A DNA stretch of 64,000 nucleotides from Labilithrix sp. (GCA_046351255.1 JAXLYU010000005.1:1146583-1210582), one strand, 5' to 3'; numbered from the stretch's first letter, positions 43,096 to 50,609 are shown. The notes: generated by a model from the letters alone, not told the origin. Translations and numbers: made by a program.

Positions 43096-43413
43096 CTACG
43101 ATATACCGGTCTCCGCCAGCGCGTGAGCCAGTGCGCGCCGGCGCCGTGCGCGCGGCGCGTCGCCGAGCAGCTCGGAGACCTCCGCGTCGGTCTCGAGCAG
43201 CTTCACGAGCGCCCCGACTTTGTCTCCGGACATCATGCGGATGGACGCGGGGTCGAGGCGGTCGAGAACGAGGGTCGGCACGCCGACCTGCGAATACGCT
43301 GCGTCGATCTCGCGGCGCGTCTCCGTCGGGTGCTCGGCGGCGCGCCCGATCACGCGATTCGCGAGCTGCGCCATCTCCTCGAGGAGACGTTCGAGATAGT
43401 CGCGCTTGATCAC
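43096..43413 (-). CDS. Small hypothetical protein, GTGA-coupled to the upstream small gene
   Basis: GTG at 43413 overlaps the TGA of the upstream ORF (gtga). Translates to VIKRDYLERLLEEMAQLANRVIGRAAEHP... Confidence 0.35.
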   Translation of the reverse strand: MIKRDYLERLLEEMAQLANRVIGRAAEHPTETRREIDAAYSQVGVPTLVLDRLDPASIRMMSGDKVGALVKLLETDAEVSELLGDAPRARRRRALAHALAETGIS

Positions 43414-43712
43414 GAGGGGCTCCCCGGCGCGTCCGCGCGTTCCTGGACCAGGACGAAGGGCTGCACGACGAGCGCGGTCCAGGGCGAGCCCGTGCGCTTC
43501 GACCATTGCTCAATCGTCTCGAGGGTCGGCTTGCCGATGAGGCCGCGCTCGATCCACTCCGCCACGCGTGCCTTGTCGTCGCGGGCGACCGCCTCACCGA
43601 CCTCGAGAAGGTCGAGCTCGAGGGCGACCGTGATGACCGCGCCGCGGGTGAGGTGGGCGCGCAGGTCGGAGAATTCGATCGGGCCCATCCCCTCTTCCAG
43701 CTGCTTGCGCAT
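43410..43712 (-). CDS. Small conserved hypothetical protein (possibly DUF2288-like)
   Basis: MRKQLEEGMGPIEFSDLRAHLTRGAVITVALELDLLEVGEAVARDDKARVAEWIERG...PFVLVQE. 100 aa. Confidence 0.4.
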   Translation of the reverse strand: MRKQLEEGMGPIEFSDLRAHLTRGAVITVALELDLLEVGEAVARDDKARVAEWIERGLIGKPTLETIEQWSKRTGSPWTALVVQPFVLVQERADAPGSPS

Positions 43713-43808
43713 GTGCGACGCCTACCACGCGTGGTACGCAAACGACGTGGGCTTTGTTCCGTCTTTCTCACGCAACCGGCTCGAGCCGGCGGCCGAGGAT
43801 AGGCAAGG

Positions 43809-46800
43809 ATGAGCGTCCTCGTCGTCGCGGAGAAGCCGAGCGTGGCGCGTGACATCGCGCAGGTGCTGGGCGCTCGCTCGCGCGGCGAAGGCTATTTCCA
43901 CGGCGGCGCGTGGGTCGTCACCTGGGCCATTGGCCATCTCGTGGCGCTCGCCGAGCCTCACCAGATGAACGCGGCGTGGAAGAAGTGGCGCCTCGACGAC
44001 CTGCCCATCCTTCCCGAGCGCTGGCCGCTGGTACCGGGCGAGAAGACGCGCGACCAGTACGACGTCGTTCGTCGTTTCCTGCTCGACCCGGCGGTACGCG
44101 GCGTGGTCTGCGCGACGGACGCGGGGCGCGAGGGCGAGCTCATCTTTCGCTACGTCTACGAGGCGGCGCGCTCGAACAAGCCGGTGAAGCGGCTGTGGAT
44201 CTCGTCGCTCACCGCGGAGGCGATCGCGCAGGGCTTCAAGTCCCTCGCGCCGGGGGCCGACTTCGACCGTCTCGCGGACGCGGCGCGCGCGCGTAGCCGT
44301 GCGGACTGGCTCGTCGGCATGAACCTCTCGCGCGTGTACAGCCTCCTGCACGACGACAACCTCAGCGTCGGGCGCGTCCAGACGCCGACGCTCGCGATGC
44401 TCGTCGCGCGCGAGCTCGAGATCCGCGACTTCGTGCCCGAGGACTACCTCGAGGTCGTCGTGGACTTCGGACCGGAGAAATATTCCGGCACGTTCGTCGG
44501 CGAAAAGAAGGAAGCGGCGCGGCTCGAGCCCGACGGGGAGGCGGCGAACGCGATCGTCGCGCGGGCGAAGACGGGGCAGGCGGCGGTCGAGTCGGTCGAG
44601 CGAAAGACGCGGAGGCTCCCGCCGCCGCAGCTCTACGATCTGACGGAGCTCCAGCGCCACGCGAATCGGCTTTACGGCTTCACCGCGCAGCGCACGCTCC
44701 AGATCGCGCAGAAGCTCTACGAGGAGCGAAAGCTGATCACGTATCCGCGTACGGGCAGCCGGCATCTCTCCCGCACCGTCGCCGAGCAGCTCCCGAACGT
44801 GGTGCGCGCGATCGAGGAGCCGTACCGGGCCATGCTCGCGGCGGGCACCGGCGCCCGCCCGCTCGGGCCGCGCTTCGTGGACGACACGGAGGTGACCGAC
44901 CACCACGCCATCATCCCGACGGAGAAAGAGGCCCCGGGCGATCTGCCTCCCGACGAGAAGCGCATCTACGACCTCGTGTGCCGGCGCCTGCTCTCGGCGT
45001 GGCACGGCGATCACGTCTTCGCGGTCACGAGCGTCATCACCGCGATCGTGAATCCCGATCATCATGATCGCTATCTGAGCTCCGGCACGAGCGTGGAGGA
45101 GCAAGGCTGGAAGGTGCTCGATATCGGCTTTGGCCGCCCGCCGAAGGACGCTCCACCGACGCTCCCGGGCGGGCTCGCGCGAGGGCAGAAGAAGGTCGTC
45201 CTGGACGCGAAGGCGGTGAAGAAGCAGACGCGTCCGCCGCCGCGCTTCACCGACGCAACACTCCTCACCATGATGGAGACGGCGGGGCGCCTCGTCGACG
45301 AGCGCGAGCTCTCCCAGGCGATGCGCGAATGCGGCCTCGGCACGCCCGCGACGCGCGCGGCGATCATCGAGACGCTGCTCGCGCGCGAGTACATCGTTCG
45401 AGACGGCAAGGCCTTCTCCGCGACGGACAAGGGCATCGCTCTCATCGGGCTCGTCCACCCGCACGTGAAGAGCCCGGCGATGACGGGCGACTGGGAGTCG
45501 AAGCTCGCGCGCATCGAGCGGGGAACGGAGAGCCTCGACGGCTTCATGAAGGCGATCGAGGCCTGGGTGAAGGAGGTCGTCGGCAACGTCGCCGCGTCCA
45601 CGCCGGCGCCCCCGCGCCCCCGCACGCCCGCGCCCGGAGCGGCGGCGCCGCCGCCCTCCGGAGCGGCGCGCCCCCCGAAGACGGAGCGCACGCGCGAGCT
45701 CGGGCCGCTCCTGCGCGACGCCTTCGGCTTCACCGAGTTTCGGCCGTATCAGGAGGAGGTGTGCAAGGCCGCGGCGGGCGGGCGCGACGTGCTCCTCGTG
45801 ATGCCCACCGGCGCGGGCAAGTCGCTCTGCTATCAGCTCCCGGGGCTCGCGCGCGGCGGCACGACGCTCGTGATCAGCCCACTCATCGCGCTGATGGAAG
45901 ACCAGGTCGCGCAGCTCACGAAGCGCGGCTTCGCGGCGGAGCGCATTCACTCCGGCCGGCCGCGGCTGGCGTCGCGCGAGGCGTGCCAGGCGTATCTCGC
46001 GGGCGATCTCGATTACCTCTTCATCGCGCCCGAGCGGCTGCGCGTGCCGGGATTCCCGGAGATGCTCGCGCGCCGCAAGCCGGCGCTCATCGCCATCGAC
46101 GAGGCGCATTGTATTTCGCAATGGGGACACGATTTCCGTCCCGACTACCGGCTCCTCGGCGACCGGCTGCCACTCTTGTGTCCGTCGCCGGTGATCGCGC
46201 TCACCGCGACCGCCACGCCAGGCGTGCAGGACGATATCGCGGCCCAGCTTCGGCTCGACAACGCCGCGCGCTTCATTCACGGATTCCGGCGCACGAATAT
46301 CGGTGTCGAGGTGGTGGAGCGCAATCCCGGCGAGCGCGCCGCCATCGTCGTCGACCTGCTCTCGAAGGCCGAGCGGCGGCCCGCGATCGTCTATGCCCCG
46401 ACACGCAGCGATGCGGAGAAGCTCGCCAGCGAGCTGAAGAAGCTCCGCGCCGCCGCGTACCACGCCGGGCTCGGCGCTGACGTGCGCGATCGCGTACAGG
46501 CCGCCTTCCTCGGCGGCAAGCTCGACGTCATCGTCGCGACGATCGCGTTCGGGATGGGCATCGACAAACCCGACGTGCGCACCGTCGTCCATACCGCGCT
46601 GCCGTCGTCCGTCGAGGGTTACTACCAGGAGATCGGTCGCGCCGGGCGCGACGGCAAGCCTTCGCGTGCCGTCCTCTTGCACTCCTTCGTCGACACGAAG
46701 ACGCACGAGTTCTTCCTCGAGCGCGACTATCCCGACGTCGACGTCGTCGCGAAGGTGGCGAAGGCGCTCGCCGCCTCCGGCGAGGACGCGACGGCCGCGA

Positions 46801-47456
46801 AGATCGCCAAGAAGGCGAAGGTGAAGACGGAGATCGTGCAGAAGGCGCTCGAGAAGCTGCAGATCCACGGCGCGGACCCCGACTGGCGCCGCGCCTACGA
46901 GGCGCAGCGCGCGCACAAGCGGGACGCGCTCGACCGCATGCGGCGCTTCGCAGAGAGCGCCACGTGCCGGATGCTCCAGCTCGTCACGCACTTCGGCGAC
47001 GAGCGCGACGGCGGCGCGCCGTGCGGGATCTGCGACGTATGCGACGCGAGCGCGTGCATCGCCCTCTCGTTCCGCGCGCCGAGCGCGCTCGAGAGCGACG
47101 CCGCCGAGCGCATCGTCGCCGCGCTCCGCGGGAAGGACGGTCGCTCCGTCGGCCAGATCCTGCGCGAGGTGTTTCCGGAGAACGAGCTCGATCGCCGCGG
47201 GCTCGACCACGTGCTCGCCGCCCTCTCCCGCGCGGGGGTGGTCGAGCTCGTGAACGACGAGTTCGTGAAGGACGGCAAGACGATCCCGTTCCAGCGTGTC
47301 TGGCTCGAGAGCGCAGACGGTACGACCAGCGCTCCGCTCCGCGTCGTCATCACGCCGCCGAAGAAGGCGAAGCGCGGGAAGGGGGCGACGAAGAGCGACT
47401 CCGCGCGCCGAGCGTTCTTCGCGCGCCGAGCGAAGGGGAAGAAGAAGCGGAAATGA
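43809..47456 (+). CDS. Fusion protein: type IA DNA topoisomerase III (N-terminal ~600 aa) + RecQ-family DEAH helicase with RecQ-Ct zinc module (C-terminal ~580 aa)
   Basis: Toprim [18 protein letters not shown] and the Topo IA active-site Tyr region [13 protein letters not shown]. After a Pro-rich linker: FRPYQEEV...[18 protein letters not shown] (helicase motif I), [20 protein letters not shown] (DEAH), [32 protein letters not shown] (motif VI), [13 protein letters not shown]...CGICDVCD (Zn-binding RecQ C-terminal region). One uninterrupted 1215-aa reading frame. Confidence 0.9.
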
Positions 47457-48058
47457 GGTTCGAGCTCGGCCACGCCTGGAAGGACGAAGCTCGCCTCGCC
47501 GAGGCGTGGCGGGCGGCGACACCATTTCCCCATCTGATCTTCGACGATCTCCTCGCCGCCGGGCCGCTGTCCGAGCTCATGGCGGTTCTGGAAGAGGAGG
47601 CAATTGACCATTACGAGAACGATATTTACTCGTTCGACGCGTCCTCTCCGACGGCGATCTCCGAGCCGCTCCGGCGCGTGCGCGACGCATTCGGCCAGAC
47701 GTTCGCGCCCCCGCTCGCTCGCATCACCGGCAAGCCGGTGAGCCACGCCGATATGCGCGCTTACGCCTACCGGCCGGGGCATTTCTTGCTCCCGCACTCC
47801 GATCATCAGACGGGCGTGGGCCGGCAGCTGGCGTATGCCTACTACGCGCCTTCCCCCGAGCCGCCCGATGACGGGGCGCTCGAGCTCTATCGTTGCGAGC
47901 TCGAGGACGGGGAGGTCGTGCACGCGGAGAGCGCTCGCCTCATCGAGCCGCGCGCGAATCGCCTCGTCGTCTTCGACGTGAGCGACGTGTCGCTCCACCA
48001 GGTGCGCGAGGTCATGGCGGGCCTCCGCGTGTCGCTCGCGGGATGGTTCTACCCATGA
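47453..48058 (+). CDS. 2OG-Fe(II) oxygenase (prolyl-hydroxylase-like; PF13640-type)
   Basis: ATGA overlap with the topo-RecQ stop. [14 protein letters not shown] (HxD), VSLHQV (distal His), RVSLAGWF (2OG-binding Arg-x-Ser and the C-terminal W-F typical of this family). Confidence 0.65.
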
Positions 48059-48582
48059 CCACCGCGAGCGCTCGCCTCTGGCGATCGGCGACGATGCCTG
48101 CGGTCGTCGTGCCGGATGCGATCGGCTCCGAGCTCGCGGCAGACGCCCGCGCTCGCCTCGAACGGGCGGGCTATTCGCGATACGGCCGCATCGATCGAGC
48201 GAGCTACGACCACGTCGACGACCCGCCGCTGCCCGAGCTCGTCGAGGCCCTCTTGGGCATCGCAGAGGCGGTGACGGGCCGCGCCGGGAAGGTCTCGGCG
48301 GTGCGCGCGATCCGCCTCGAGCCCGGCGATTATCTCCTCACCCGACACGACCGCGTTCTCGACGACCGGCCGCTCGAGCTGGTGCTCGATCTGTCCGCCT
48401 CGCCCGTCGATCGTGCGGAGGTTCACTTCCGCCACCGCGGGCAAGTGTTCTTCACGATGACGTCGCAGCCCGGCGCGCTGGCCATCGTCGAGCGCGGCCC
48501 GACCGTGATGAGCAATCACACGTACGTCAGCAAGCGGCTCCGCGGCTCGGTGGTGCGCCTGGTCGTCCATCTGGCCGCATAG
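48055..48582 (+). CDS. 2OG-Fe(II) oxygenase-like paralog with degenerate metal-binding motif
   Basis: ATGA overlap with the upstream oxygenase. Similar spacing but HxD replaced by YLLTRHDRV. 175 aa. Confidence 0.45.
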   Translation: MTTASARLWRSATMPAVVVPDAIGSELAADARARLERAGYSRYGRIDRASYDHVDDPPLPELVEALLGIAEAVTGRAGKVSAVRAIRLEPGDYLLTRHDRVLDDRPLELVLDLSASPVDRAEVHFRHRGQVFFTMTSQPGALAIVERGPTVMSNHTYVSKRLRGSVVRLVVHLAA

Positions 48583-48587
48583 GGCGA

Positions 48588-49472
48588 TCAGGGACTCGCG
48601 GCGAGCCGTCGCAGCATGTCTCGCGCGCTCGACGTGACGATGCCGACGACGTTGCCGCCGTCGCAGCTCCCGGGATGCGTGATCGTGCCCGGCAGCGGGC
48701 CGCCGGAGACGACCGCGACGACCTCGAATCCGGTCGCGGTCGGCCGGAGCATCGGTCCGCCCGAGTCGCCATGGCAGGTCTGAACGGCTGGCGCGGAGAG
48801 ATAGGCCTCGTAGCCGGCGAGCAGCGTGCGGCGGTAGGTGAGCGTGAAGTCTTCGACCTCGAACTCGCCCAGATCGTGGCCCGAGTGCTCCGCCGCGGCG
48901 TCGAGCCAGCGATCGAGCGTGGTGTATCGAAGCGGGAGCGGCGCGCCGCTCACGGCGAGCACCGAGAGCGGGCCGGCCTTGCGCGTATCCGCCGAGCCGC
49001 CCGTGCCCTGGGCGCCGTAGCCGACGGCGACGACCGTCTTGCCGACGTCGGTCGCGTCGAGCGCGCGCGTGGCGACGGCGACGGGCGCGATGTCCGTGAT
49101 CGCCTCCGCGAGGATCACGCCCGCGACGTCGCTCCCGAGACGCATGAAGCCTCCGCGCTCGGGCAGGGCGCGCTCGAACCGATCGATGGCGACGACCCGG
49201 TCCGGGTGGCGCGCGTCGGCGCCGAACGCGAAGGCGGCGTCCGCGGGGAGATCGAGCGTGCAGTGCTTCGCCGTCACCACCACGCGCGGCGCGACGAGCG
49301 TGCCGGTGCAGAACGACTTGCGATGCGCGTCGTCTCCGGTGACGAACGCGCCGACCGCGACGTGGCGGGCGTCGGCCTCGCCGCCGATGAGGGCGTCGTC
49401 GCCGCCGGTCACGTCATCGGCGGGCGACGAGCACCCGAAGACGACCAGCGCGAGCAGTCCCGACCAACGCAC
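48588..49472 (-). CDS. Secreted trypsin-like (S1 family) serine protease lipoprotein
   Basis: Lipobox FGCSS. LIGGEAD...FCTGTLVAPRVVVTAKHC (His active-site motif) and CHGDSGGP (Ser active site). Confidence 0.8.
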   Translation of the reverse strand: MRWSGLLALVVFGCSSPADDVTGGDDALIGGEADARHVAVGAFVTGDDAHRKSFCTGTLVAPRVVVTAKHCTLDLPADAAFAFGADARHPDRVVAIDRFERALPERGGFMRLGSDVAGVILAEAITDIAPVAVATRALDATDVGKTVVAVGYGAQGTGGSADTRKAGPLSVLAVSGAPLPLRYTTLDRWLDAAAEHSGHDLGEFEVEDFTLTYRRTLLAGYEAYLSAPAVQTCHGDSGGPMLRPTATGFEVVAVVSGGPLPGTITHPGSCDGGNVVGIVTSSARDMLRRLAASP

Positions 49473-49508: not shown

Positions 49509-50609
49509 CTAAGCGCGTCGCTGCGCCTCCAGCCGGTCGTAGTGGCGGTAGCCGAGCTTTTCGATCGTGCTCTTCGGGGCGAGGCCGATGTCGACGAGCG
49601 TCTTCAGCGCATAGGTGCCCGCAAGCACCGGTGGCCCGTAATTCTTGCGCTCTTCCAGGCCGAGGAACGGCTTCAGCGGGTAGAGGATGCGGTTCGGGTT
49701 TGCGTGCACGAAATGCGCAGCCGAGTCCCGGGCCCAGCCCGCGACGCCCGGCGCGGTGATGACGTGCGGCGTGGCGACGAAGCGCCCGCCGGTGAGGATC
49801 TCGAGCTGCTGCCCGATCTGCGCCACGATGCAGCCCTCCGGCGGACGACCGCGGACCTGCACGCCCGCCGGATTCTCGGGCGTGCCGCGCGTGCGGAGGA
49901 AGAGCCCGCTCTTGTCGTCGGGCTTCGGGGCCGTCTTGCCTTCGGGGCTCACGAAGCGTCCGCCGGGGAGGAGCGTCAGCAGGTTGAAGTCGGTGTGCTC
50001 CTCGCCCCAGAGGATGCCCTTGTCGATCTGATCGGGCTTCAGCGCGAGGTAGTGGAGGATGCGCGTGACGTGAGCGCCGCCCTCGCAGACGTCGACGAAG
50101 ACGCCGGGCTCGAGGCCCAGCGCTCGGGCCGCGCCGCGCAGGAGCTCGTTGCCGGCCTCGTGGAGCGCGCGCCCCATCTCGATGTACTCGCGCCGCCACG
50201 TCTCCGCGTTCGGGATCGTCTCCGGCCAGACGTTCGCGCAGAAGATCTCCGGATACTGCGCCGCGATCTCGGGATCGCTGTCGTACGGCGCCGCGAAGTA
50301 GCACTCCTTGAAGTCGGGCTGACCGCCGCCCGCGACCGCGGTCTCGGTGTTCGGCGGCGTCCAGCCGCGCTGGTACCACTCGGCGCGGCGCGCGAGGCGC
50401 TCCTTCTCGTCGGGCGGGAGCTTCGTGATGGCGCGGAAGCCGTCGAACACGCGACCTACGGCCTCCTGATCGACGCCGTGGCCTTTCACGTAGACGAGAC
50501 CGTAGACGCCGAACGCCTCGCGGAGCGAAGCGCAGGCGGTCTCGAGGCGGGCCGGGTCGTTGGAGCGGAGATCGTCGAGGTCGACGGTGGGAATCGCAGG
50601 AGCGGACAT
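49509..50609 (-). CDS. 2OG-Fe(II) oxygenase, isopenicillin-N-synthase-like family
   Basis: N-terminal non-haem dioxygenase region (VDLDDL...), WGEEHTDFNLLTLL (HxD), ATPHVI (distal His). Confidence 0.7.
   Translation of the reverse strand: MSAPAIPTVDLDDLRSNDPARLETACASLREAFGVYGLVYVKGHGVDQEAVGRVFDGFRAITKLPPDEKERLARRAEWYQRGWTPPNTETAVAGGGQPDFKECYFAAPYDSDPEIAAQYPEIFCANVWPETIPNAETWRREYIEMGRALHEAGNELLRGAARALGLEPGVFVDVCEGGAHVTRILHYLALKPDQIDKGILWGEEHTDFNLLTLLPGGRFVSPEGKTAPKPDDKSGLFLRTRGTPENPAGVQVRGRPPEGCIVAQIGQQLEILTGGRFVATPHVITAPGVAGWARDSAAHFVHANPNRILYPLKPFLGLEERKNYGPPVLAGTYALKTLVDIGLAPKSTIEKLGYRHYDRLEAQRRA

What the first reader, a model, noticed from the sequence alone, without database searches (positions are those of the whole stretch)
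43809..48582. Natural topoisomerase III-RecQ fusion, co-transcribed with two 2OG-Fe(II) oxygenase-like genes
A single 1215-aa reading frame encodes a complete type IA topoisomerase III followed by a complete RecQ helicase. The topo part has the Toprim motif and the active-site Tyr in LITYPRTGS. The RecQ part has motifs I through VI including [15 protein letters not shown], plus the Zn-binding RecQ C-terminal module. In eukaryotes and in E. coli, RecQ and Topo III cooperate as separate proteins (Sgs1/BLM-Top3, RecQ-TopB) to dissolve double Holliday junctions and decatenate DNA. A covalent fusion of the two would be a single-chain dissolvasome, with the reverse domain order to reverse gyrase. 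Downstream, two genes each start on the previous gene's stop codon (ATGA at 47453 and 48055). The first is a PF13640-type prolyl-hydroxylase-like 2OG oxygenase with an intact HxD...H...R-x-S motif. The second is a paralog with degenerate metal ligands. An oxygenase pair wired to a topo-helicase suggests a hydroxylation-coupled DNA transaction, either repair or a protein-modifying step. I do not recall this architecture being characterised.
Basis: partly seen in the sequence, partly recalled or inferred. Interest (0 to 1): 0.85.

Follow-up and report, generated by a model that had tools for sequence, protein, structure and literature searches.

The report
Natural topoisomerase III–RecQ fusion protein
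One gene really does encode a DNA topoisomerase III joined to a RecQ helicase, a fusion shared by many relatives of this soil and sludge bacterium but apparently never studied, while the two oxygenase-like genes behind it are an unrelated module that sits there only in this lineage.

Summary
Window 43809..47456 (+) is one uninterrupted 1215-aa ORF with a full type IA topoisomerase III core (Toprim, catalytic Tyr312) and a full RecQ catalytic core (SF2 motifs, Cys4 zinc site, winged helix; no HRDC). A Pro-rich linker of about 35 aa joins them.

It is not an assembly artefact. A 97.7%-identical strain from other samples keeps the same ORF. At least 120 relatives at 61-79% identity have the same architecture, mostly Labilithrix and Polyangiaceae. 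So do 39 of the top 150 representatives of 50%-identity clusters, including one Zetaproteobacteria MAG. All 120 relatives keep every catalytic motif.

Public databases already hold the family, named "DNA topoisomerase 3" or "RecQ", and a PADLOC model labelled DpdF spans both halves. Nine literature searches found no characterisation.

The oxygenase link is not supported. None of 27 related fusion loci with at least 2 kb of downstream sequence carries the pair. In six other lineages the pair stays together but never sits beside a topo-RecQ gene. The pair looks like a split OGFOD1/Tpa1/Ofd1-type protein hydroxylase.

Most likely function: a single-chain RecQ-Topo III strand-passage enzyme for decatenation or dissolution. 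This is inferred, not shown.

The parts
43809..47456 (+). Topo III-RecQ fusion gene, 1215 aa, stop codon included
   Evidence: Uninterrupted ORF with GC3 0.91. NCBIfam PRK07726 'DNA topoisomerase 3' scores 648 bits (cutoff 597) and TIGR00614 recQ_fam scores 382 bits (cutoff 220).
43815..44207 (+). Toprim domain (aa 3-133), with AEKPS (Glu8) and the D104-A-G-R-E108-G-E acidic motif
   Evidence: Pfam PF01751. Aligned to E. coli Topo III. DAGREGE is invariant in 120 fusion homologs.
44265..45548 (+). Type IA topoisomerase core (aa 153-580), with catalytic Tyr312 in LITYPRTGS (nt 44733-44759)
   Evidence: PF01131, E 5e-109. The topoisomerase half as a whole (query aa 4-626) aligns to E. coli Topo III residues 3-637, E 4e-92. 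The Tyr motif [ST]YPRT is conserved in the fusion homologs.
45597..45698 (+). Pro-rich linker (aa 597-630, about 30% Pro) between the two enzymes
   Evidence: No domain hit. These columns vary in the family alignment. The gap between the halves ranges from about 13 to about 235 aa among relatives. Composition.
45741..46655 (+). RecQ SF2 helicase core (aa 645-949): Walker [23 protein letters not shown], motif [12 protein letters not shown]
   Evidence: PF00270 and PF00271. Aligns to E. coli RecQ residues 16-344, E about 1e-90. Walker A, DEAH and GHDFR are conserved in the 120 homologs; motif VI residues are invariant in the 30-sequence family alignment.
46701..46892 (+). Helical insert of about 55-60 aa (aa 965-1028) ahead of the zinc motif, absent from E. 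coli RecQ
   Evidence: Gap in the alignment to 1oyw. Predicted as helices with pLDDT above 80.
46893..47042 (+). RecQ zinc-binding subdomain, with four Cys at aa 1053-1078
   Evidence: PF16124, E 3e-9. The Cys4 site aligns to E. coli RecQ and is present in 120 of 120 homologs.
47085..47306 (+). Winged-helix (RQC-like) domain with a beta-hairpin (aa about 1093-1166)
   Evidence: AF2 model of the RecQ half, pLDDT 87. Foldseek aligns 577 columns to the 511-residue RecQ catalytic core 4tmu_A, E 2.5e-35. No Pfam RQC hit.
47355..47453 (+). Lys/Arg-rich C-terminal tail (aa 1183-1215), predicted disordered
   Evidence: Sequence. pLDDT below 50.
47453..48058 (+). oxy1: a 2OG-Fe(II) oxygenase of 201 aa resembling the OGFOD1/Tpa1 N-terminal domain. 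Adjacent to the fusion but not a conserved partner of it.
   Evidence: PF13640 and PF13661. Its only PDB sequence hit is OGFOD1 residues 58-258, E 1.3e-10. H115, D117, H182 and R192 are present.
48055..48582 (+). oxy2: a double-stranded beta-helix protein of 175 aa resembling the Ofd1 C-terminal domain, with RHD in place of HxD. It is the conserved partner of oxy1.
   Evidence: 490 homologs, none with a Pfam domain. AF2 pLDDT 92.5. The top Foldseek hit is 6e0t, the Ofd1 C-terminal domain. PF10637 hits below threshold in 22 of 40 family members.
43713..43808 (.). 96-bp divergent intergenic region upstream of the fusion, with two perfect 14-bp palindromes (43723-43736 and 43776-43789)
   Evidence: Sequence. 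The palindromes recur only in the near-identical strain L036. No sigma-70-like promoter was found.

Best explanation
The gene encodes a functional single-chain enzyme. A topoisomerase III (type IA, decatenase type) is tethered by a flexible Pro-rich linker to a RecQ-family 3'-5' helicase.

Inferred mechanism, by analogy with the separate E. coli RecQ + Topo III and eukaryotic BLM/Sgs1-Top3 pairs:
- The RecQ part uses ATP to unwind duplex DNA or to push branch points such as converging forks, hemicatenanes or double Holliday junctions.
- This exposes single-stranded DNA next to the tethered Topo III.
- Topo III then cleaves one strand through Tyr312 and passes another strand through the gate, unlinking the two molecules.
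- The fusion fixes a 1:1 ratio and keeps the two activities at the same place, a job done by SSB in E. coli and by RMI1 in eukaryotes.

The gene belongs to a large family in Polyangia-type Myxococcota and has no conserved operon partner.

The two downstream genes are an autonomous, conserved two-gene module. It is a split OGFOD1/Tpa1/Ofd1-like protein hydroxylase: a catalytic subunit plus a non-canonical beta-helix subunit. In this lineage alone it has landed at the 3' end of the fusion gene and is probably co-transcribed with it, without a conserved functional link.

Shown here: the architecture, the intact motifs, recurrence of the fusion, and lack of neighbourhood conservation.
Inferred: both enzyme activities, their coupling, the in vivo substrates, and the hydroxylase's target.
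For: Both halves pass curated family cutoffs. They align end to end with E. coli Topo III (residues 3-637, including the region of the decatenation loop without a gap) and with the E. coli RecQ helicase and zinc site. The RecQ-half model matches complete RecQ catalytic cores over 577 columns.

Selection acts on both activities. All 120 homologs at 61-79% identity keep the Toprim acidic motif DAGREGE, Walker A, GHDFR and the Cys4 zinc site. The Toprim AEKP motif is found in all but a few N-terminally truncated sequences, DEAHC in 118, and the Tyr motif [ST]YPRT wherever it was tallied.

39 of the top 150 representatives of 50%-identity clusters have both halves in the same order. Identity per half falls as low as 33-42%.

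Independent assemblies of a strain 97.7% identical in DNA keep the 1215-aa ORF. It has 31 substitutions, several of them in the linker and none in the catalytic motifs listed above.

The neighbourhood is not conserved. tblastn with oxy1 and oxy2 found nothing even at E up to 1 in 32 related loci. No neighbour cluster is shared beyond close relatives.

The oxy pair is conserved as an overlapping or closely adjacent pair in L033, L034, L043, L044, L045 and L046, each in a different context.

The RecQ/Topo III partnership itself is described in PMC8185306 (which cites Harmon et al. 1999) and PMC4109787.
Against: No biochemical or genetic data exist for any member.

The Toprim acidic motif reads D-x-G-x-E, not the D-x-D-x-E of E. 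coli Topo III. This variant is invariant in the family, so it is probably native. Its effect was not tested.

The window protein lacks HRDC, which 87 of the 120 listed relatives have. HRDC contributes to junction specificity in other RecQ helicases.

It scores below the cutoff for the canonical recQ equivalog (442 against 640 bits).

Two distant fusion relatives have lost Walker A and DEAH, so helicase activity is dispensable in some lineages.

The 4-nt stop/start overlaps do suggest translational coupling with oxy1 in this lineage. A local functional link therefore cannot be strictly excluded.
Confidence: 0.72

Rival explanations
1. The oxygenase pair and the topo-helicase form one functional system, a hydroxylation-coupled DNA transaction or hydroxylation of the fusion protein itself, for example of its Pro-rich linker.
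For: The three genes run in the same direction with ATGA stop/start overlaps and no terminator-like site between them. The arrangement is kept in L036-L038. oxy1 belongs to the prolyl-hydroxylase-like branch, and the linker is about 30% proline.
Against: The adjacency is confined to one lineage at about 97% nucleotide identity. None of the 27 other fusion loci with downstream sequence has the pair. The pair was found in 6 of 6 other contexts without a topo-RecQ gene, including L. luteola, which has both genes unlinked. In those contexts the pair follows unrelated genes, so it behaves as a movable tail-end module. It shows no similarity to DNA-acting AlkB or TET/JBP families beyond the shared fold.
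Confidence: 0.05
2. The fusion is an artefact: a missed stop codon or frameshift between adjacent topB and recQ genes, or a chimeric assembly.
For: The source is a metagenome-type sequence. Two related loci (L019, L027) do show the gene split into two overlapping ORFs.
Against: The identical protein occurs on an ENA contig (P0001). The same 1215-aa ORF occurs in independent assemblies at 97.7% identity. More than 120 full-length homologs exist, including in the complete genomes of Labilithrix luteola and Pendulispora albinea. There are 39 divergent cluster representatives. Coding GC3 is continuous across the junction.
Confidence: 0.01
3. It is a component of an anti-phage defence system, a DpdF-like helicase of a 7-deazaguanine (Dpd) DNA-modification and restriction cluster.
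For: PADLOC model PDLC02865, labelled DpdF (1499 positions), matches both halves at 1537 bits. Several other DpdF and PsyrT models match the RecQ half.
Against: The curated NCBIfam DpdF equivalog scores 205 bits against a cutoff of 550. The neighbours are a GGDEF protein, DUF2288, a trypsin-like protease, an M23 peptidase and a kinase, with no Dpd-type genes. No conserved neighbour appears across 31 loci, whereas defence systems are multi-gene and syntenic. The PADLOC label most likely reflects homology-based clustering.
Confidence: 0.04
4. It acts as a reverse-gyrase-like enzyme that changes supercoiling, through ATP-driven positive supercoiling or renaturation, and does not unlink recombination or replication intermediates.
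For: Like reverse gyrase, it joins an SF2 ATPase to a type IA topoisomerase in one chain. The topoisomerase half hits the reverse gyrase model weakly.
Against: The domain order is reversed. The reverse gyrase model scores 108 bits against a cutoff of 472 and covers only the topoisomerase part. The helicase is a complete RecQ core with zinc and winged-helix domains, not the reduced latch-bearing module of reverse gyrase. The linker is long, variable and probably flexible, unlike the tight interface of reverse gyrase.
Confidence: 0.05

Closest known systems
E. coli RecQ + topoisomerase III (TopB), acting as separate proteins
   Same: The two enzyme families are the same. The topoisomerase half aligns to E. 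coli Topo III residues 3-637. The helicase half aligns to E. coli RecQ residues 16-344 plus the zinc site. The expected chemistry is helicase-generated ssDNA used for strand passage.
   Different: Here the two are one polypeptide joined by a Pro-rich linker. The protein has no HRDC domain and carries an insert of about 55 aa before the zinc motif. The Toprim motif is D-x-G-x-E. No SSB-mediated recruitment should be needed (inference).
Eukaryotic dissolvasome (BLM/Sgs1 - Top3 - RMI1)
   Same: A RecQ-family helicase is physically coupled to a type IA Topo III. The RecQ half matches BLM at E 3e-70.
   Different: Coupling is covalent, not through the helicase N-terminus and RMI1. No RMI1-like OB-fold protein was seen nearby. 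The protein is bacterial and much smaller.
Reverse gyrase
   Same: It is a natural single-chain fusion of an SF2 ATPase with a type IA topoisomerase.
   Different: The domain order is opposite. The helicase is a full RecQ core. The score is below the family cutoff (108 against 472 bits). The host is mesophilic with a high-GC genome.
OGFOD1 / Tpa1 / Ofd1 two-domain 2OG oxygenases (compared with the downstream gene pair)
   Same: oxy1 matches the OGFOD1 N-terminal catalytic domain. The best structural match of oxy2 is the Ofd1 C-terminal domain, followed by Tpa1 and OGFOD1. Weak PF10637 hits recur across the oxy2 family.
   Different: The two domains are encoded by two overlapping genes, not one chain. 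oxy2 keeps invariant His, Asp and Arg residues (RHD...NH...R), so it may not be fully inert. The substrate is unknown.

Membership tests
Type IA DNA topoisomerase III (TopB) | Score above the curated family cutoff | tested here: met
   NF005829 scores 648.4 bits (cutoff 597). TIGR01056 scores 550.7 bits (cutoff 515.75).
Type IA DNA topoisomerase III (TopB) | Catalytic tyrosine in the conserved [ST]YPR[TS] context | tested here: met
   Tyr312 in LITYPRTGS aligns with LITYPRS of E. coli Topo III and is conserved in the fusion homologs.
Type IA DNA topoisomerase III (TopB) | Toprim Glu plus the acidic D-x-D-x-E metal-binding cluster | tested here: inconclusive
   Glu8 (AEKPS) is present. The cluster reads D104-A-G106-R-E108, so the second Asp is Gly. 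This is invariant in 120 homologs. Its functional effect was not tested.
Type IA DNA topoisomerase III (TopB) | Decatenation-loop region (E. coli residues about 502-519; residue numbers from memory) | tested here: met
   Aligned to the E. coli sequence with only a single-residue gap in that region.
Type IA DNA topoisomerase III (TopB) | Relaxation and decatenation activity | not testable with these tools
   Needs purified protein.
RecQ-family helicase | SF2 motifs I-VI and a score above the recQ_fam cutoff | tested here: met
   TIGR00614 scores 382.5 bits (cutoff 219.8). PTGAGKS, DEAHC, GHDFRP and [10 protein letters not shown] are present.
RecQ-family helicase | Canonical RecQ equivalog (TIGR01389) | tested here: not met
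   442.3 bits against a cutoff of 640.2. It is a RecQ-family member but not the canonical full-length RecQ type.
RecQ-family helicase | Zinc-binding Cys4 subdomain | tested here: met
   PF16124, E 3e-9. The four Cys align to E. coli RecQ.
RecQ-family helicase | Winged-helix (RQC) domain with a beta-hairpin | tested here: met
   There is no Pfam RQC hit. The AF2 model has a three-helix plus hairpin module, and Foldseek aligns 577 columns to complete RecQ cores.
RecQ-family helicase | HRDC domain | tested here: not met
   There is no PF00570 hit in the window protein. It is present in 87 of the 120 listed fusion relatives.
Reverse gyrase | N-terminal helicase-like module, C-terminal topoisomerase, and a score above the TIGR01054 cutoff | tested here: not met
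   The order is reversed. The score is 108.5 bits against 471.7 and covers the topoisomerase part only.
Dpd system helicase DpdF | Score above the curated DpdF cutoff and a dpd gene neighbourhood | tested here: not met
   NF041063 scores 204.7 bits against 550. No dpd-type neighbours are present. PADLOC PDLC02865, labelled DpdF, does match at full length.
Conserved operon of fusion plus oxygenase pair | Gene adjacency conserved across orthologous loci | tested here: not met
   None of the 27 other fusion loci with at least 2 kb downstream has the pair. None of 6 other oxy-pair contexts has a fusion gene.
OGFOD1/Tpa1/Ofd1-type 2OG oxygenase (oxy1 + oxy2) | Catalytic beta-helix domain with HxD...H and a 2OG-binding Arg | tested here: met
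   oxy1 has H115, D117, H182 and R192. It matches PF13640 and PF13661, and OGFOD1 residues 58-258 at E 1.3e-10.
OGFOD1/Tpa1/Ofd1-type 2OG oxygenase (oxy1 + oxy2) | A second, non-catalytic beta-helix domain of Ofd1_CTDD type | tested here: inconclusive
   The top fold hit of oxy2 is 6e0t (E 2.6e-8, TM 0.75), but other beta-helix oxygenases score close to it. PF10637 hits stay below threshold (best E 0.004; 22 of 40 members).
OGFOD1/Tpa1/Ofd1-type 2OG oxygenase (oxy1 + oxy2) | Both domains in one polypeptide | tested here: not met
   They are two genes with a 4-nt overlap. The same split is seen in all contexts examined.

The most novel reading that the evidence does not exclude
In this one lineage the split OGFOD1-like hydroxylase has been recruited to act on the fusion enzyme, for example by hydroxylating prolines of its Pro-rich linker or tail. 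Recombination or decatenation activity would then respond to oxygen or 2-oxoglutarate. The evidence does not exclude this: the genes overlap and are probably co-translated, and both gene sets co-occur, unlinked, in related genomes. Nothing found here positively supports it.

The more probable but less exotic novel reading is that the fusion is a self-sufficient single-chain dissolvasome or decatenase. I put that at about 0.5 probability, with interest of about 0.65 if true.
Probability: 0.04. Interest if true: 0.8.

Novelty: new variant of a known kind. Interest (0 to 1): 0.5.

Why it matters
How a RecQ helicase and a type IA topoisomerase are physically and kinetically coupled is still studied with multi-protein complexes: RecQ-SSB-Topo III in bacteria and BLM-TOP3A-RMI1/2 in eukaryotes. 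A natural single-chain version, conserved across many bacteria with both active sites intact, would be a compact system for cryo-EM and single-molecule work on helicase-driven strand passage. It would also be a counterpoint to reverse gyrase, which has the opposite domain order.

The fusion also serves as Rosetta-stone-type evidence that the RecQ-Topo III partnership is ancient and selected in bacteria.

The oxygenase part matters less for DNA biology. It does reveal a conserved bacterial split form of the OGFOD1/Tpa1/Ofd1 hydroxylase family.

Tried and rejected
1. I looked for the oxygenase pair, and for every other window neighbour, in 32 related loci by tblastn at E up to 1. Nothing was found.

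2. I clustered all neighbour ORFs of 31 loci to find any conserved partner of the fusion. Only local synteny among close Labilithrix relatives appeared.

3. A metagenome scan with oxy2 gave only 4 loci and was uninformative. I used direct contig look-ups instead.

4. Nine literature searches for a natural Topo III-RecQ fusion found nothing relevant. The 'DpdF' search returned only unrelated uses of the acronym. Two candidate papers, PMC8185306 and PMC5512222, do not mention such a fusion.

5. I searched for a shared operator such as a LexA box upstream of fusion genes. There is no conserved motif. The two 14-bp palindromes in the window occur only in the near-identical strain.

6. The promoter and terminator scan of 43300-49000 found no promoter-like site and only one chance-level terminator-like site inside the gene on the other strand.

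7. The full 1215-aa protein exceeded the 1200-aa limit of the representative search. I used aa 1-1195 instead.

8. The look-up of the L. luteola fusion protein P0014 found no record, so its genomic distance from the oxy pair is unknown. It is not within 8 kb of the pair.

9. Whether the genome also has separate topB and recQ genes could not be tested.

Full report
**Observation**

Window 43809..47456 (+) is one uninterrupted reading frame of 1215 codons. Its codon-position GC is 0.71/0.48/0.91, the coding signature of this roughly 68% GC sequence. The longer antisense ORF is the usual high-GC shadow.

Pfam places Toprim at aa 3-133, Topoisom_bac at 153-580 (E 5e-109), DEAD at 645-806, Helicase_C at 844-949 and RecQ_Zn_bind at 1029-1078. 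NCBIfam scores the protein above the curated cutoffs for DNA topoisomerase 3 (648 against 597 bits; 551 against 516) and for the RecQ family (382 against 220). It scores below the cutoff for the canonical recQ equivalog (442 against 640).

The two ATGA stop/start overlaps at 47453 and 48055 are real. Both downstream frames look coding, with GC3 of 0.84 and 0.86.

**Anatomy of the fusion**

The N-terminal half aligns to E. coli Topo III residues 3-637 with only small gaps. The aligned region includes the Toprim glutamate, the catalytic tyrosine and the stretch that holds the E. coli decatenation loop.

One departure is the acidic Toprim cluster, which reads D-A-G-R-E where E. coli has D-P-D-R-E. 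This variant is invariant in all 120 close homologs, so it looks native and not degenerate.

A 34-residue linker with about 30% proline (aa 597-630) follows.

The C-terminal half aligns to E. coli RecQ residues 16-344 and then to the Cys4 zinc motif. About 55 extra residues lie in between. An AlphaFold model of this half (pLDDT 87) shows two RecA-like domains, the zinc subdomain with a helical insert, and a winged helix with a beta-hairpin. Foldseek aligns it over 577 columns to complete bacterial RecQ catalytic cores (4tmu_A, E 2.5e-35).

The window protein has no HRDC domain and ends in a disordered Lys/Arg-rich tail. So "complete Topo III plus complete RecQ catalytic core" is correct. "Complete RecQ" needs the qualifier that HRDC is missing.

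**Is it real and recurrent?**

Yes, on several counts:
- The identical protein exists on an independent ENA contig (P0001).
- A strain 97.7% identical in DNA, assembled from other samples (L036-L038), has the same 1215-aa ORF. It carries 31 substitutions, several of them in the linker and none in the catalytic motifs listed above.
- The best 120 homologs (61-79% identity, near-full coverage) all have the same architecture. They come from Labilithrix, Pendulispora, Polyangiaceae and "Myxococcales" genomes and MAGs. 87 of them also carry HRDC.
- All 120 keep the Toprim acidic motif, Walker A, GHDFR and the Cys4 site. The AEKP motif is missing only from a few N-terminally truncated sequences, DEAHC is found in 118, and the Tyr motif [ST]YPRT is conserved wherever it was tallied.
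- A search of 1.84 billion cluster representatives found both halves, in the same order, in 39 of the top 150 representatives. Identity per half falls to 33-42%. Pfam confirmed the full architecture on five of six divergent members tested.
- One divergent member is from a Zetaproteobacteria MAG.

The gap between the halves varies from about 13 to about 235 residues, as expected for a flexible tether.

**What is already known**

Sources name these proteins "DNA topoisomerase 3" or "RecQ family helicase". PADLOC-DB (2023) contains a 1499-position model labelled DpdF that matches both halves at 1537 bits. The architecture has therefore been captured computationally.

The DpdF label does not hold up as a functional assignment. 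The curated DpdF model scores 205 bits against a cutoff of 550, and no dpd-like genes lie nearby.

Nine full-text searches and two targeted paper checks found no description or characterisation of a natural Topo III-RecQ fusion. The library does not cover all journals, so this is absence of evidence within that library only.

**The oxygenase pair**

oxy1 (47453..48058) is a PF13640/PF13661 2OG oxygenase with H115-x-D117, H182 and R192-x-S194. Its only sequence match among solved structures is the N-terminal catalytic domain of human OGFOD1 (E 1.3e-10).

oxy2 (48055..48582) has 490 homologs, all unannotated. A confident model (pLDDT 92.5) is a double-stranded beta-helix. Its best structural match is the C-terminal domain of fission yeast Ofd1, followed by SnoK, Tpa1, PolD, OGFOD1 and PHD2. 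22 of 40 family members give sub-threshold hits to Pfam Ofd1_CTDD, the only recurring family. A profile comparison with oxy1 is weakly positive (E 0.0018) and aligns PGDYLLTRHD with [10 protein letters not shown]. The first metal-binding His is therefore replaced by Arg, with a His shifted by one position.

The pair thus looks like a split version of the two-domain OGFOD1/Tpa1/Ofd1 protein hydroxylases. However, oxy2 is highly conserved, with invariant R-H-D, N-H and R residues, and may not be inert.

**Is the pair linked to the fusion?**

No. tblastn with oxy1, oxy2 and nine other window neighbours against 32 related loci found no oxygenase, even at E up to 1. Of those loci, 27 have at least 2 kb downstream of the fusion gene. 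In most loci the next gene is on the opposite strand. No neighbour family is shared beyond close relatives.

Conversely, the oxy1-oxy2 pair keeps its overlapping or closely adjacent arrangement in six other contexts. These are the L. luteola complete genome, two JGI MAGs, a Labilithrix MAG and two others. There it follows unrelated genes: DUF3817, a hypothetical protein, DUF4328 and a sigma-54 activator, or it stands after divergent genes. It is never beside a topo-RecQ gene.

Only the window's own lineage (L036-L038) has fusion-oxy1-oxy2. The simplest reading is that a self-contained hydroxylase module landed at the 3' end of the fusion gene in this lineage.

**Mechanism**

*Shown:* the architecture, the intact catalytic motifs, selection on both halves, a flexible linker, and the lack of any obligatory partner gene.

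*Inferred from the established RecQ-Topo III partnership* (PMC8185306 citing Harmon et al. 1999; PMC4109787): RecQ translocation or unwinding generates single-stranded DNA, or converges branch points, next to the tethered Topo III. Topo III then performs strand passage to unlink replication or recombination intermediates. Tethering would replace recruitment through SSB or RMI1.

I put about 0.7 on this overall picture. Within it, I cannot tell whether the main in vivo job is double-Holliday-junction dissolution, resolution of converging forks or precatenanes, or anti-recombination.

**Rivals**

| Rival | Probability | Main reason |
|---|---|---|
| Oxygenase-coupled system | about 0.05 | Adjacency not conserved |
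| Assembly artefact | about 0.01 | Independent assemblies and many homologs |
| Defence helicase (DpdF-like) | about 0.04 | Below the curated cutoff; no dpd neighbours |
| Reverse-gyrase-like supercoiling enzyme | about 0.05 | Reversed order, below cutoff, full RecQ core |

**Verdict**

The fusion is real and interesting, and it is a good experimental target. It is a member of a sizeable family that databases already hold but nobody appears to have characterised. It is a covalent variant of a well-known two-enzyme partnership, not a new kind of system.

Interest 0.5. Novelty: new variant of a known kind.

Noticed in passing
window 47453..48582; loci L033, L034, L043-L046: oxy1 and oxy2 form a conserved, usually overlapping two-gene module (490 oxy2 homologs, mostly Labilithrix-like). 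It looks like a split bacterial form of the eukaryotic two-domain OGFOD1/Tpa1/Ofd1 prolyl hydroxylases. oxy2 has invariant R-H-D, N-H and R residues in place of a canonical HxD...H.
   Followed up: partly
L036 10511..12208, inserted between window 48582 and 48583: A strain 97.7% identical in DNA carries a 1.7-kb insertion encoding a 565-aa protein with no Pfam hit, placed exactly between oxy2 and the trypsin-like gene. The window lacks it.
   Followed up: partly
proteins P0273 and P0297: Two distant fusion relatives keep the topoisomerase tyrosine but have lost Walker A and DEAH in the RecQ half. For P0297, Pfam no longer detects DEAD or Helicase_C (P0273 was not scanned). In these the helicase half appears to be a dead scaffold.
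   Followed up: partly
protein P0307: A 1400-aa protein joins a Ser/Thr kinase domain and Sel1-like repeats to a RecQ of the same subtype (56% identity to the fusion's RecQ half). This RecQ subtype therefore fuses with more than one partner.
   Followed up: no
L029 9950..12052 (Bdellovibrionales MAG): A stand-alone RecQ gene of the same subtype (58% identity) with no topoisomerase gene within 10 kb upstream. It may represent the unfused state.
   Followed up: partly
window 43723..43736 and 43776..43789: Two perfect 14-bp palindromes (TACCACGCGTGGTA and CCGGCTCGAGCCGG) lie in the 96-bp divergent region between a DUF2288 gene (43413..43712, minus strand) and the fusion gene. They recur only in the near-identical strain, and no shared operator was found upstream of other fusion genes.
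   Followed up: partly
window 49509..50609 (-): A third 2OG-oxygenase-type gene (DIOX_N plus a weak 2OG-FeII_Oxy hit) lies about 1 kb downstream on the opposite strand, next to a trypsin-like protease gene (48588..49472, minus strand).
   Followed up: no
L019 10001..13974 and L027 9650..14235: In two related loci the fusion gene is split into two overlapping ORFs inside the RecQ half. This is either a frameshift pseudogene or an assembly error.
   Followed up: no
window 46701..46892 (aa 965-1028): A helical insert of about 55-60 aa sits between the helicase core and the zinc motif. It is absent from E. coli RecQ, is retained in the 30-sequence family alignment and is predicted with good confidence. 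Its function is unknown.
   Followed up: partly
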